From Escherichia coli (GTDB lineage: Bacteria > Pseudomonadota > Gammaproteobacteria > Enterobacterales > Enterobacteriaceae): DNA of 64,000 nucleotides. Of the stretch, positions 53,157 through 63,634 are shown piece after piece. Numbering within the stretch: position 1 is the first letter of the stretch; the number at the start of each line of letters is the position of its first letter. The stretch lies in NCBI RefSeq assembly GCF_045037415.1, contig NZ_CP173438.1; one strand, given 5' to 3'. Both the position numbers and the translations under genes were made by a program. Under the pieces are notes generated by a model. It was not told where the DNA came from, searched no databases, and saw nothing but the letters and a program-made list of their open reading frames with translations.

Positions 53157-53233
53157 TTACCGTTGAGGTAATAATTATGCGTATATGGTTTGATGTCAAT
53201 AGATATGAGTTAAAAAAATTACCCGTTAGGTAA
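53157..53233. promoter_or_regulatory. putative leftward early promoter with two perfect TTACC-N5-GGTAA palindromes
   Basis: TTACCGTTGAGGTAA (53157-53171) and TTACCCGTTAGGTAA (53219-53233), upstream of the minus-strand early operon. Confidence 0.6.
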
Positions 53234-53244
53234 TCGAATAGGCA

Positions 53245-53270
53245 ATAAAAAAGCCGCCATAAGGCGGCTT
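53245..53270 (-). terminator. rho-independent terminator after the repressor gene (bidirectional shape)
   Basis: GCCGCC-ATAA-GGCGGC hairpin flanked by an A-run on one side and T-rich sequence on the other. Confidence 0.7.
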
Positions 53271-53290
53271 ACTTACTGAAAAATATGGTT

Positions 53291-53875
53291 TTATTGTTTG
53301 TTTTTTTCGTTCTGGTTGATGACAAATTCAATGTAACTTTCGATCTTTGCTTTCTCGGTTTCGGGTAACAATGCGTAGCGTGAGCGGTCATAGTTGATAG
53401 TCGCAGGGTCGTGCGGGTGAATCAGTAGTTCATATCCGTGACGCCCGAATGCGGATGCAACATTCTCCAGGGTGGAAATGGAAACGCTGACCTCATTGTT
53501 TAACAGGCGGCTGATTGTCACCTGGGCGACGCCGGATGCGCGGTGAAGTTTTCCCTGAGTTGAAAGGTCGCGGCTTTCACTCATCCAGCGTTCCAGGTTG
53601 TGAGCTGCCAGCTGACCAATGTCGCTTGGGCCGACAGGCTGAAAACCTTCCTGAGAAAGCGAGCGATCGATATCAAGCCAGTTACGGGGTTTATTGGCGG
53701 CAGCTTCAATTTTTCGCGCAACCTGGTCGCCGATAACCTTCTTGCCAAGAGCCCAGCGGTTTACCAGATTTGCCTGAGTTCCAAGTTTTTCTGCCATCCG
53801 CGTCTGAACACCATTGAATTCACGGTCGATCAAGTCGTTGAGATTTTGCCTGCGGACGTCCTGGATACTTTTCAT
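53291..53875 (-). CDS. prophage repressor with two tandem XRE-type HTH domains, no S24 peptidase domain
   Basis: 194 aa; two HTH-like segments (QTRMAEKLGTQANLVNRWALGKK and ASGVAQVTISRLLNNEVSVSISTLENVASAF); divergent from the cro-like gene. Confidence 0.7.
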   Translation of the reverse strand: MKSIQDVRRQNLNDLIDREFNGVQTRMAEKLGTQANLVNRWALGKKVIGDQVARKIEAAANKPRNWLDIDRSLSQEGFQPVGPSDIGQLAAHNLERWMSESRDLSTQGKLHRASGVAQVTISRLLNNEVSVSISTLENVASAFGRHGYELLIHPHDPATINYDRSRYALLPETEKAKIESYIEFVINQNEKNKQ

Positions 53876-54029
53876 TTTCTGGAAAATCGCCTCATATATG
53901 AATCAGTAGATGATTCAATTTAAAGCAATATTACCCAACAGGTAAATGCACCCCATAGGTAACTATCCTTGATTTTTGTTACCTTATGGGTGAATATTTA
54001 TTATCTGAAATAAATATCAGGCAATAGCT
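53876..54029. promoter_or_regulatory. immunity-region divergent promoters/operators
   Basis: 154-bp gap between divergent repressor and cro-like genes holding TTACCCAACAGGTAA (53931-53945, perfect), TTACCTTATGGGTGA (53979-53993, one mismatch) and a GGTAA half-site at 53958. Confidence 0.65.
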
Positions 54030-54260
54030 ATGAGCGATAACGGACATTTCGATTTCAAAAAGCACTGGCTTGCACTTACTCCGGATGAGCGTGAAGCCTT
54101 CGCACAGGAAGCCGGAACGACGAGTCACTATATCCAGACTCACTTAACAGGTAAGCGCAAAATGCCAGGTAAGGTATTGATGAATGGGCTTTTTAAAGCA
54201 TGTAAAACAAGACAATGGCTGCGCTCAAAAGCGGAACTGGCATACTTCTTCTACTCATGA
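54030..54260 (+). CDS. Cro-like small DNA-binding protein
   Basis: 76 aa; position and orientation opposite the repressor; HTH-like segment TTSHYIQTHLTGKRKMPGKVL. Confidence 0.55.
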   Translation: MSDNGHFDFKKHWLALTPDEREAFAQEAGTTSHYIQTHLTGKRKMPGKVLMNGLFKACKTRQWLRSKAELAYFFYS

Positions 54261-54282
54261 TATCTGGCAACAACCCTCTGTA

Positions 54283-54305
54283 GACCGCCATCCGGCGGTC
54301 TTTTC
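54283..54305 (+). terminator. rho-independent terminator after the cro-like gene
   Basis: GACCGCC-ATCC-GGCGGTC hairpin followed by TTTT; immediately followed by the imperfect palindrome GTACCTCAAAGGTAA (54307-54321). Confidence 0.65.
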
Positions 54306-54410
54306 ATATCTATTCGTACCTCAAAGGTAATAAAAAACCAAATCTGGTTGATCTTTTTTTTGTGTCAGCACAAAATAACCGTAATCCCAATACTAATAAC
54401 AGGGCTTACC

Positions 54411-62557: not shown

Positions 62558-62582
62558 TCCGCTGGTGGGGATAATGTCGTTG

Positions 62583-62627
62583 ATATCCTCTGATGAGGAT
62601 AAAACAAAGCCAGCTCATCGGCTGGCT
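62583..62627. terminator. two hairpins between terL and the convergent 135-aa gene
   Basis: TATCCTC-TGAT-GAGGATA (62583-62600) and AGCCAGC-TCATC-GGCTGGCT (62607-62627); the second is followed on the minus strand by TTTGTTTT and contains the 135-aa gene's stop codon. Confidence 0.5.
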
Positions 62628-63022
62628 GTTTGTGACATGTCACTGTGTTGTTGCTCGCTTAACTTCTGCTTCAGCAAGTAACCTTCAAGCATCCAGATTT
62701 TGTTTACAGCATTCTGCCGGGCAATCTTCCGACCAATTTCTGCATCAAAATTTTCCGGACTTGCACAGGCACTCTCTCCGGTGACAGTGAAGCCATTCTT
62801 CAGCACCAGTACGCAGAAAGTGAGAAGGTGCAGAGCATCAGGGGTGGCTTCGACATAAGGCTCCGGATTATAAATAAGGTCATCTTCTTTAGCCTGGTGA
62901 TCACCCTGCGCAGCAGTGAAAAAATGCTCACTGCAAATGAGGCCTTCAATTTTCTCAGGTGTTACACGCGGTGCCGTTTTGCCTTTCTCAACGATTTCTT
63001 TTTCGATTTGCTGGTCGTTCAT
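62615..63022 (-). CDS. hypothetical prophage cargo protein (135 aa), reverse to the structural genes
   Basis: clean ORF on the opposite strand between terL and a tRNA; no confident homology from memory. Confidence 0.55.
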   Translation of the reverse strand: MNDQQIEKEIVEKGKTAPRVTPEKIEGLICSEHFFTAAQGDHQAKEDDLIYNPEPYVEATPDALHLLTFCVLVLKNGFTVTGESACASPENFDAEIGRKIARQNAVNKIWMLEGYLLKQKLSEQQHSDMSQTASR

Positions 63023-63033
63023 AATCTCACCTT

Positions 63034-63060
63034 AAAAAAATGCCCGGCGAACCGGGCGAA
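63034..63060 (-). terminator. rho-independent terminator between the tRNA and the 135-aa gene
   Basis: minus-strand reading GCCCGGTTCGCCGGGC followed by TTTTTTT. Confidence 0.6.
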
Positions 63061-63220
63061 CTGGAAGCAATGAGTTATGCCTTCCGTGGCTGTACTGGTT
63101 TACAGCATGAAGTCATCGCAATGGCGTCCTGCTGTAAAAAGGGCGGTGATAGTCCTTCAAGGGAAACCATCACCGCCAAGCCCCTGGAACTTCTGGCATC
63201 ACGGTCCTTAGGCGTGATTC

Positions 63221-63297
63221 TGGCGTGGCATGCAGGATTCGAACCTGCGACCAACCGCTTAGAAGGCGGTTGCTCTGTCCAACTGAGCTAATGCCAC
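63221..63297 (-). tRNA. tRNA-Arg (anticodon UCU), prophage-encoded
   Basis: reverse complement folds as a 77-nt cloverleaf: acceptor GUGGCAU/AUGCCAC, D-arm GCUC/GAGC, anticodon stem ACCGC/GCGGU with loop CUUCUAA, T-arm GCAGG-UUCGAAUC-CCUGC, 3' CCA encoded; differs from the host argU sequence as I recall it. Confidence 0.85.
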
Positions 63298-63619
63298 AAC
63301 GCTGAGAGCACTTAGCCTGTTAAGGCGCCACACTTTGTCGCGGCTCCATAAATGCTCTCATCGTTGTACCCTCGTCTCTTCCGAGGCGTCACACCGAATC
63401 GCCGGGATGGTGAATCCCCGTGCGCGGAATAAAACCGCTCGACTTGCACATTCCGGCTACCTGGTTCGTTTGCCCGAGCAAGGGAGGGTGCCCCTTAAAC
63501 GTATCCAGACCGCTATCGGCGCATGTGCCATACGCCGTACTGCTCAAAATAAAAGCTCACTCCACCTGTTCAATTTAACGACAATCCAGTCAGGTTAGTA
63601 ACCGGAATGAACTCTTTGG

Positions 63620-63634
63620 TTACCTGAAAGGTAA
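63620..63634. promoter_or_regulatory. perfect TTACC-N5-GGTAA palindrome upstream of the rightward genes
   Basis: TTACCTGAAAGGTAA in an AT-rich gap. Confidence 0.55.

What the first reader, a model, noticed from the sequence alone, without database searches (positions are those of the whole stretch)
53157..63634. Dispersed perfect palindrome TTACC-N5-GGTAA marks the prophage intergenic regions
Six perfect copies of TTACC-N5-GGTAA (53157, 53219, 53931, 56261, 56323, 63620) and three one-mismatch copies (47605 before int, 53979 in the repressor/cro gap, 54307 after the cro terminator) all fall in prophage intergenic regions, at or just upstream of operon starts. For a fixed 10-base palindromic pattern, uniform base composition predicts about 64000/4^10 = 0.06 occurrences in the window, so six is far above chance. 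I found none in the 47 kb of host DNA by eye, but I did not scan exhaustively. The arrangement suggests one DNA-binding protein, most simply the tandem-HTH repressor, controlling at least five transcription units, more like a stoperator-type network than the two operator clusters of lambda. An activator or host factor is an alternative.
Basis: seen in the sequence. Interest (0 to 1): 0.8.

Follow-up and report, generated by a model that had tools for sequence, protein, structure and literature searches.

The report
Repressor operators of a phiV10-like prophage
The repeated palindrome TTACC-N5-GGTAA is real and far above chance, but it is the ordinary operator sequence of the immunity repressor of epsilon15/phiV10-type phages, already marked as repressor-binding sites in the epsilon15 reference genome.

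Summary
The window has 7 perfect copies of TTACC-N5-GGTAA, not 6; about 0.06 are expected. All 7 lie in non-coding DNA of a prophage inserted at the 3' end of guaA. The 47.5 kb of host DNA in the window has none, and 152 kb of E. coli host DNA has one.

The prophage is a phiV10/epsilon15-type podovirus (genus Uetakevirus). The RefSeq record of epsilon15 annotates seven "protein_bind: repressor, lysogeny" features, and each is exactly this motif. They sit at the same dispersed positions: the leftward early promoter (PL), a middle promoter, upstream of terS, the late operon and the tailspike region.

The repressor gene at 53291-53875 is 100% identical to phiV10 gp40 and to ZX5 ORF21. It is a full-length homologue of the tetrameric Rep of Salmonella phage SPC32H (PDB 5D50).

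The stoperator comparison is loose, because these sites are palindromic and sit at promoters.

The one modestly interesting point concerns two promoters. Each is bracketed by an operator pair exactly 62 bp apart, and this spacing is kept in 15 of 16 pairs across the genus. That fits looping by a Rep tetramer, which I infer and have not shown.

The parts
47455..47471 (+). attL core ATTGAGTGGGAATGATT at the 3' end of guaA; left end of the prophage
   Evidence: Exact match. The same core is reported as attP/attB for ZX5, phiV10 and epsilon15 (PMC9782041).
47605..47619 (.). One-mismatch copy TTACCTTAAAGGTAT upstream of int; doubtful as an operator
   Evidence: The same mismatch is conserved in four clades, inside the inverted repeat GACGGTA...TACCGTC. 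The epsilon15 record places integrase and RNase III sites here, not repressor.
53157..53171 (.). Downstream operator of the leftward early promoter (PL); it covers the transcription start region
   Evidence: Perfect copy. The -10 AATTAT ends on its first T. Homologous to the epsilon15 site 32554-32570, annotated as repressor-binding.
53171..53199 (-). PL-like sigma-70 promoter TTGACA-17-AATTAT, lying between the two operators
   Evidence: Joint best-scoring promoter-like hit in the prophage part, 10 of 12. The -35 and the geometry are conserved in six genomes.
53219..53233 (.). Upstream operator of PL, centred 62 bp from the downstream operator
   Evidence: Perfect copy. The 62-bp spacing is conserved across the genus. 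Homologous to the epsilon15 site 32616-32632.
53291..53875 (-). Immunity repressor (Rep), 194 aa, with an N-terminal HTH and a second HTH-like middle domain
   Evidence: E = 4e-42 over the full length to PDB 5D50, SPC32H Rep. 100% identical to phiV10 gp40 and ZX5 ORF21. Pfam finds HTH only and no S24 peptidase domain. The putative recognition helix NLVNRW is invariant.
53931..53993 (.). Three-part right operator between rep and the cro-like gene: 53931-53945 (perfect), 53948-53962 (2 mismatches), 53979-53993 (1 mismatch, inside the rightward early promoter, PR)
   Evidence: The layout, with spacings of 17 and 30-31 bp, is conserved in all clades. A promoter-like hit at 53976-54004 overlaps the third site.
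54030..54260 (+). Cro-like small HTH protein (homologue of epsilon15 gp39); a possible second binder of the same sites
   Evidence: phrog_35, transcriptional repressor. 58-84% identical across the genus, with an invariant HTH.
54316..54330 (.). One-mismatch copy GTACCTCAAAGGTAA after the cro terminator; weak or non-functional
   Evidence: Absent at the equivalent place in PAS61 and not annotated in epsilon15.
56262..56276 (.). Upstream operator of the middle promoter, ahead of the DUF1064/resolvase-type gene
   Evidence: Perfect copy. Homologous to the epsilon15 site 35906-35922, annotated as repressor-binding.
56296..56324 (+). Promoter-like TTGATT-17-TTTAAT between the two operators, with the same geometry as PL
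   Evidence: Read from the sequence. ctaTTGA and the register are conserved in seven genomes. The scan tool instead scores TCGACA-16-TAAAAT around the upstream operator at 56255-56282.
56324..56338 (.). Downstream operator of the middle promoter; it overlaps the Shine-Dalgarno GAGG of the gene starting at 56342
   Evidence: Perfect copy, 62 bp from 56262.
60457..60489 (.). Two abutting operators (60457-60471 perfect, 60475-60489 one mismatch) just upstream of terS
   Evidence: An extended -10, TGgTACTAT, ends on the first T of the first site (read). The epsilon15 site 12-27 is annotated as repressor-binding. terS starts at 60492.
63620..63634 (.). Operator upstream of the late (portal/head) operon
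   Evidence: Perfect copy. Homologous to the epsilon15 site 2931-2947, annotated as repressor-binding.
63646..63705 (+). Nearly invariant leader and promoter-like block, with a lone GGTAA half-site (63692-63696) in the 62-bp register of the 63620 operator
   Evidence: Alignment of seven genomes. No Rfam match.

Best explanation
The sites are the operators of the prophage immunity repressor Rep (53291-53875). The prophage is a phiV10/epsilon15-type Uetakevirus integrated at guaA.

Rep most likely binds each 15-17 bp palindrome, (A)TTACC-W5-GGTAA(T), through a pair of N-terminal HTH domains. In the lysogen it would shut off every lytic transcription unit directly:
- the leftward early operon (PL);
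- the rightward early promoter (PR), with a three-site right operator shared with rep's own promoter;
- a middle promoter at 56.3 kb;
- terS;
- the late head operon;
- beyond the window, the antirepressor/tailspike region.

At PL and at the middle promoter, one operator covers the transcription start and a second lies exactly 62 bp (about six helical turns) upstream. A Rep tetramer could hold both and trap the promoter in a small loop. Derepression would come through a LexA-controlled small antirepressor, as in SPC32H, not through RecA-mediated cleavage.

Shown here: the motif, its enrichment, its positions, the homologies and the epsilon15 annotation. Inferred: binding by this Rep, looping, and the induction route.
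For: - Enrichment. There are 7 perfect copies against 0.06 expected, all in non-coding prophage DNA. Host DNA has 1 copy in 152 kb.
- Identity of the element. The prophage is 97% identical to PAS61 and phiV10. Rep is 100% identical to phiV10 gp40 and ZX5 ORF21.
- Existing annotation. The epsilon15 RefSeq record carries seven protein_bind features labelled repressor/lysogeny. Each coincides with a perfect TTACC-N5-GGTAA.
- Conservation. The motif and its syntenic positions hold in 7 genomes from 4 host genera, although the Reps are only 43-44% identical. The putative recognition helix NLVNRW is invariant.
- Homology to a characterised repressor. Rep matches SPC32H Rep (PDB 5D50) over its full length, E = 4e-42. 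That protein binds palindromic DNA as a tetramer (PMC9638917). It has an N-terminal DNA-binding domain and a C-terminal tetramerisation domain of the fold that PMC9986798 names TetDloop after its DNA-looping role in the plasmid repressor Rco. The interface residue F190 is invariant here as F184.
- Function of the identical protein. Over-expressed ZX5 ORF21 blocks the lytic cycle and cuts holin mRNA by 99.97% (PMC9782041).
- Promoter geometry. The PL -10 ends on the first base of the downstream operator. One operator lies inside the PR core promoter.
- Spacing. Pairs are 62 bp apart in 15 of 16 pairs.
- Induction route. Pfam finds no S24 peptidase domain in Rep. A same-immunity E. coli prophage has an Ant 88% identical to SPC32H Ant, next to an SOS box and a Rep operator.
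Against: - I saw no direct binding data. Kropinski 2007, Kim & Ryu 2013 and Kim 2016 are not in the library. The epsilon15 features carry no visible experimental qualifier.
- The Cro-like protein is even better conserved than Rep, so co-conservation cannot separate the two proteins.
- The epsilon15 record leaves out the right-operator sites and the downstream member of the middle pair, so that annotation is incomplete.
- A 62-bp loop is tight. The paired middle domains of SPC32H Rep are about 100 A apart, while 62 bp of straight DNA is about 210 A. Looping therefore needs strong bending or long linkers.
- The -10 elements at the middle and late promoters are weak by consensus.
Confidence: 0.85

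Rival explanations
1. The sites are recognised mainly, or additionally, by the small Cro-like HTH protein (54030-54260). It would act as the lytic-phase repressor at the same operators, as Cro does in lambda.
For: The protein belongs to phrog_35, transcriptional repressor. It is 58-84% identical across the genus, with an invariant HTH AGTTSHYIQTHLTG. It therefore co-varies with the invariant half-sites at least as well as Rep does. Its gene starts right after the three-part right operator.
Against: The epsilon15 record names the repressor, not gp39, as the bound protein. Sites at terS, late and tailspike promoters make more sense for a lysogenic repressor. As the sole binder, Cro would leave Rep without operators. 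Shared binding is compatible with the best explanation.
Confidence: 0.3
2. The sites are targets of a phage activator. The candidates are the gp49/gp55-type transcriptional regulator at 60033-60371 and the PerC-like protein at 50220-50519. Either would turn on middle and late promoters.
For: Both proteins fall in transcription-regulation PHROG families. The late and tailspike promoters have poor -35 elements and a conserved upstream block, which suggests they depend on an activator.
Against: Several sites overlap the -10, the start site or the promoter spacer. Those are repressing positions, not activating ones. The same motif fills the rep/cro switch region. The epsilon15 annotation says repressor.
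Confidence: 0.05
3. A host factor binds the palindrome, either a chromosomal transcription factor or a nucleoid protein.
For: The epsilon15 record places IHF sites next to some of these operators, so host proteins do act in these regions.
Against: The motif is nearly absent from host DNA. There is 1 copy in 152 kb, and it lies inside a coding region. A host regulator would be expected to have chromosomal targets. The motif tracks the phage across four host genera.
Confidence: 0.03

Closest known systems
Epsilon15 gp38 / SPC32H Rep repressor-operator system (genus Uetakevirus)
   Same: The half-sites and spacer length are the same, and so are the syntenic positions: a PL pair at 62 bp, a three-part right operator, a middle pair, terS, the late operon and the tailspike region. 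The epsilon15 RefSeq record annotates these as repressor-binding sites. The repressor is a full-length homologue.
   Different: Rep here is only 42-43% identical to the epsilon15 and SPC32H proteins. The spacers are less A+T-rich (0.66 against 0.85-0.88). The second right-operator site is degenerate. There is no site before the lysis genes, whereas epsilon15 has one at 24704. The phiV10, PAS61 and ZX5 records and the ZX5 paper do not mark operators.
Lambda CI/Cro switch
   Same: Rep and a cro-like gene diverge around a three-site operator. Rep lies upstream of, and reads in the same direction as, the leftward early operon, separated from it by a terminator. One operator sits inside the PR core promoter. 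Cooperative binding across 5-6 helical turns is known for CI from my own knowledge (Hochschild and Ptashne 1986).
   Different: There are more than two operator clusters. The left operator is two sites 62 bp apart that bracket the promoter, not three adjacent sites. Rep has no S24 autocleavage domain. Induction is presumably by an antirepressor.
Dispersed-operator repressors: P1 C1 and Streptomyces phiC31 c repressor (conserved inverted repeats)
   Same: One immunity repressor has operators at many promoters spread over the genome, so lytic operons are shut off directly and not through a cascade. This comparison rests on my own knowledge of those systems.
   Different: No sequence relationship was found. 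P1 C1 operators are asymmetric. The number of sites here is small, about 9-11 per genome.
Mycobacteriophage L5 gp71 stoperators
   Same: One repressor has many sites across the prophage.
   Different: Stoperators are asymmetric 13-bp sites. They are oriented with transcription and lie within transcription units, where they stop elongation (my own knowledge; Brown et al. 1997). The sites here are perfect palindromes at promoters.

Membership tests
Epsilon15/SPC32H-type Rep immunity system (Uetakevirus) | The repressor is homologous over its full length to SPC32H Rep / epsilon15 gp38 | tested here: met
   E = 4e-42 over residues 1-190 against PDB 5D50. 42% identity to epsilon15 and SPC32H by tblastn. 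Alignment A1.
Epsilon15/SPC32H-type Rep immunity system (Uetakevirus) | The operator is the hyphenated palindrome (A)TTACC-N5-GGTAA(T) annotated as repressor-binding in epsilon15 | tested here: met
   The epsilon15 protein_bind features coincide with perfect motif copies. The same motif occurs 7 times in the window.
Epsilon15/SPC32H-type Rep immunity system (Uetakevirus) | Sites lie at syntenic regulatory positions (PL pair, right operator, middle pair, terS, late operon) | tested here: met
Epsilon15/SPC32H-type Rep immunity system (Uetakevirus) | Rep physically binds these sites | not testable with these tools
   The primary papers are not held. Only secondary statements are available: Rep binds palindromic DNA as a tetramer.
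Epsilon15/SPC32H-type Rep immunity system (Uetakevirus) | Tetramerisation domain (interface residues F187 and F190 of SPC32H Rep) | tested here: met
   F190 is invariant (F184 here) and F187 is replaced by Tyr. The residues are taken from PMC9986798. The oligomeric state itself was not tested.
Epsilon15/SPC32H-type Rep immunity system (Uetakevirus) | LexA-controlled small antirepressor Ant as the inducer | tested here: inconclusive
   The window ends at 64000, before that region. A prophage with an identical immunity region (L008) has an Ant 88% identical to SPC32H Ant, with an SOS box and a Rep operator.
Mycobacteriophage stoperator network | Asymmetric sites with a fixed orientation relative to transcription | tested here: not met
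   All sites are perfect or near-perfect palindromes.
Mycobacteriophage stoperator network | Sites lie within transcription units and act on elongation | tested here: not met
   Sites overlap or flank promoter-like elements at operon starts. None lies inside a gene.
Lambda-type CI repressor | C-terminal S24 peptidase (RecA-stimulated autocleavage) domain | tested here: not met
   Pfam finds only HTH families.
Lambda-type CI repressor | Exactly two operator clusters (left and right) of three adjacent sites each | tested here: not met
   The right operator is three-part. The left operator is two sites 62 bp apart, and there are at least three further operator loci.

The most novel reading that the evidence does not exclude
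The invariant 62-bp (six-turn) operator pairs that bracket PL and the middle promoter are the DNA counterpart of the tetrameric Rep with its loop-forming tetramerisation domain. One tetramer would clamp both operators and enclose the whole promoter in a micro-loop. PMC9986798 says the repression mechanism of this repressor 'has not been extensively characterized'. A side possibility follows from the data: the half-sites are invariant while the Reps are only 43% identical, so immunity specificity within the genus, if there is any, may reside in the 5-bp spacer (A+T 0.66 against 0.85-0.96).
Probability: 0.4. Interest if true: 0.4.

Novelty: already known. Interest (0 to 1): 0.2.

Why it matters
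This changes little. It shows that a conspicuous motif in a common E. coli prophage is the known operator of the epsilon15-type repressor. The immunity region occurs in 561 of 5426 complete E. coli genomes.

There are two practical gains. Operators could be added to the phiV10-type records, which lack them. The terS start, annotated too long in phiV10 and PAS61, could be corrected.

The conserved 62-bp bracketing geometry gives a concrete, cheap test of whether this tetrameric repressor works by promoter-enclosing loops.

Tried and rejected
- Primary literature. I tried to read Kropinski et al. 2007, Kim & Ryu 2013 and Kim et al. 2016. None is held. Full-text searches for the consensus string and for epsilon15 operators found nothing relevant. 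My recollection that the epsilon15 paper gives a 17-bp consensus is therefore unverified and is not used as evidence.
- Natural immunity swap. I looked for a close Uetakevirus lacking a Rep homologue, to ask whether the motif disappears with the repressor. Every enterobacterial relative with TerL at least 78% identical also has a Rep homologue, so no such control exists in the collection.
- Distant repressor. Pseudomonas phage PseuP_224 cI is 39% identical in the N-terminal domain but has a different recognition helix. It has no motif copy within 8 kb. This fits the explanation but is weak evidence.
- Conservation as a discriminator. Protein conservation cannot separate Rep from the Cro-like protein, because both have invariant HTH helices.
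- RNA element. Rfam finds only a tRNA in the prophage part.
- 47605 as an operator. I rejected this as probable, for the reasons in the first-reader verdict.
- Two-mismatch copies. Taken as a class they are not enriched in the prophage: 0.48 per kb against 0.70 per kb in the host.
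Full report
**Observation.** A scan of both strands finds seven perfect TTACC-N5-GGTAA copies: 53157, 53219, 53931, 56262, 56324, 60457 and 63620. Dinucleotide shuffles expect 0.06.

At one mismatch there are four further prophage copies (47605, 53979, 54316, 60475) and five host copies.

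The prophage starts at the att core ATTGAGTGGGAATGATT (47455-47471), at the end of guaA. The 47.5 kb of host DNA to its left has no perfect copy. Adding two 50-kb chromosome stretches and the flanks of a related lysogen gives one perfect copy in 152 kb, inside cyaA. The prophage part has seven in 16.5 kb.

All eleven prophage copies fall in the 10.6% of the prophage that is non-coding. The copy at 60457 seems to lie in the longest terS ORF. However, TerS of epsilon15, SPC32H and Tyrion all begin at the residue encoded at 60492, so the sites at 60457 and 60475 are upstream of the gene.

A k-mer census of prophage intergenic DNA returns only the half-site word (A)GGTAAT(A).

**What the element is.** The 16.5 kb match Escherichia phages PAS61, phiv142-3, ZX5 and phiV10 at 96.6-97.5% identity. 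These are Uetakeviruses, the epsilon15-like temperate podoviruses that integrate at guaA (PMC9782041).

The ORF at 53291-53875 is 100% identical to phiV10 gp40 and ZX5 ORF21. It is 42% identical to the epsilon15 and SPC32H repressors. It aligns over its full length with the crystallised SPC32H Rep, PDB 5D50 (E = 4e-42). Pfam sees a weak N-terminal HTH and a second HTH-like domain, with no S24 peptidase.

Over-expression of the identical ZX5 protein abolishes lytic growth and lowers holin mRNA by 99.97%.

**The decisive comparison.** The RefSeq record of epsilon15 (NC_004775.2) carries seven protein_bind features labelled repressor/lysogeny. They are at 12-27, 2931-2947, 19895-19911, 32479-32494, 32554-32570, 32616-32632 and 35906-35922. 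Every one is a perfect TTACC-N5-GGTAA with one flanking base on each side.

So the motif, the protein it is attributed to and its dispersed distribution are already on public record for the type phage. That distribution covers terS, the late operon, the tailspike region, PL and a middle promoter.

The records of phiV10 and PAS61 and the ZX5 paper do not mark operators.

**Conservation.** The perfect motif occurs:
- 8 times in phiV10;
- 8 times in PAS61;
- 9 times in Enterobacter phage Tyrion;
- 11 times in epsilon15;
- 10 times in SPC32H;
- 9 times in Klebsiella phage BUCT711;
- 9 times in a complete same-immunity prophage of E. coli AZ146.

The copies are always at syntenic regulatory positions, and in AZ146 all nine lie inside the prophage and none in its ~5 kb of host flanks.

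The extended consensus is W-A-TTACC-WWWWW-GGTAA-T-W, and the centre base is A or T in 98% of sites.

The Reps of these clades are only 43-78% identical, yet the putative recognition helix NLVNRW and neighbouring residues are invariant. This explains why the half-sites do not change.

The Cro-like protein (54030-54260; phrog_35) is even better conserved and also has an invariant HTH. I therefore cannot exclude that it shares the sites, as Cro does in lambda.

**Anatomy.**
- *PL.* The scan's joint best promoter hit, TTGACA-17-AATTAT, lies on the minus strand at 53199-53171. Its last base is the first T of the operator at 53157-53171, which therefore covers the start site. The second operator is centred 62 bp upstream, just after the rep terminator.
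- *Middle promoter.* The 56262/56324 pair has the same build: terminator, operator, T-run, ctaTTGATT, 17 nt, TTTAAT, operator. The downstream operator overlaps the Shine-Dalgarno sequence of the next gene.
- *Pair spacing.* This architecture and the 62-bp spacing are kept in 15 of 16 pairs in eight genomes; one pair is at 63 bp. The DNA between the operators has diverged.
- *Right operator.* Between rep and the cro-like gene there are three sites spaced 17 and 30-31 bp apart. The third is always imperfect and lies inside the PR core promoter.
- *terS.* Two abutting sites follow an extended -10, TGgTACTAT.
- *Late operon.* One full site precedes a nearly invariant block of about 55 bp. That block carries a lone GGTAA half-site in the 62-bp register.

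**Mechanism.** The best-supported reading is direct repression by Rep of every lytic transcription unit, through promoter occlusion.

SPC32H Rep binds palindromic sites as a tetramer, and its DNA-binding pairs come from different dimers (PMC9638917). It has a tetramerisation domain of the fold that PMC9986798 names TetDloop after its DNA-looping role in the plasmid repressor Rco. The interface residue F190 is invariant here.

Two operators on the same DNA face, six turns apart and flanking a promoter, are what a looping tetramer would need. I propose that mechanism as an inference. The loop would be tight, and I have no binding data.

Rep has no autocleavage domain. A same-immunity prophage also carries an Ant 88% identical to SPC32H Ant beside a perfect SOS box. 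Induction is therefore probably by a LexA-controlled antirepressor. That region lies beyond the window.

**Comparison and verdict.** This is the epsilon15/SPC32H-type Rep-operator system. It shares with lambda the layout of rep, terminator and PL, and the three-part right operator. It differs from lambda in having more operator loci, a split left operator and no S24 domain.

It works like other dispersed-operator repressors such as P1 C1 and the phiC31 c repressor. It fails the defining features of stoperators, which are asymmetry, fixed orientation and a location inside transcription units.

The copy at 47605 is probably part of the attP arm or int leader and not an operator. The copy at 54316 is not conserved.

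The finding is real and correctly interpreted in outline, but it is already known. The only modestly new angle is the genus-wide 62-bp promoter bracketing.

Noticed in passing
window 63646-63705: A block of about 55 bp downstream of the late-operon operator is almost invariant across E. coli, Salmonella, Enterobacter and Klebsiella phages, while its flanks diverge. Its sequence is CTACGATAAATAAATCATATGTGGTTAAATTGGTAATAATTTAATTGCGTACGGAG. It has a poor -35 and a lone GGTAA half-site (63692-63696) in the 62-bp register. A related module, ATATGTGGTT-N5-GGTAATAGAAT, precedes the tailspike gene in relatives. It may be an activator-dependent late promoter or a leader.
   Followed up: partly
window 63221-63297 (minus strand): The prophage carries a tRNA-Arg (anticodon TCT). 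The 83-aa ORF at 63040-63291 on the other strand, annotated in phiV10 as p04, overlaps it and is probably spurious.
   Followed up: partly
window 60393-60491; phiV10 NC_007804.2 41-715; PAS61 12387-13061: The terS start annotated in the phiV10 and PAS61 records is probably about 27 codons too early (33 for the window's longest ORF). The extension runs through a terminator hairpin and translates the two operators (TITTTVTITTVV). It is absent from epsilon15, SPC32H and Tyrion TerS.
   Followed up: yes
L008 (E. coli AZ146) 7988-8336: The small antirepressor Ant is 88% identical between SPC32H and the E. coli prophage, yet the Reps it should bind are only 42% identical. A perfect SOS box, CTGTATAAATATACAG (8042-8057), lies 40 bp from a Rep operator (7988-8002).
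   Followed up: partly
window 47597-47640: The one-mismatch copy before int sits inside a larger inverted repeat, GACGGTA...TACCGTC. The repeat is conserved, with the same GGTAT mismatch, in four clades. The epsilon15 record puts integrase-arm and RNase III sites here.
   Followed up: partly
operator spacers in window, L002, L004, L006, L007: The half-sites are invariant, but the composition of the 5-bp spacer differs by clade. A+T is 0.60-0.72 in the phiV10/Tyrion clade and 0.85-0.96 in the epsilon15, SPC32H and Klebsiella clades. This could bear on immunity specificity.
   Followed up: no
L002 (epsilon15) 24704, 33341, 33358, 35969: The epsilon15 RefSeq annotation marks only 7 of its 11 perfect motif copies as repressor sites. 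It omits the two right-operator sites between rep and gp39, the downstream member of the middle pair, and a copy before the lysis genes.
   Followed up: no
window 6540, 20560, 32926, 34493, 42407: The window's host DNA has five one-mismatch copies (0.105 per kb). A further 105 kb of E. coli chromosome has two. This is probably chance together with the somewhat raised frequency of the half-site words.
   Followed up: partly
window 53100-54400: This immunity region (rep, operators and the cro-like gene) is present in 561 of 5426 complete E. coli genomes. Nearly all copies are chromosomal and 95% or more identical.
   Followed up: no
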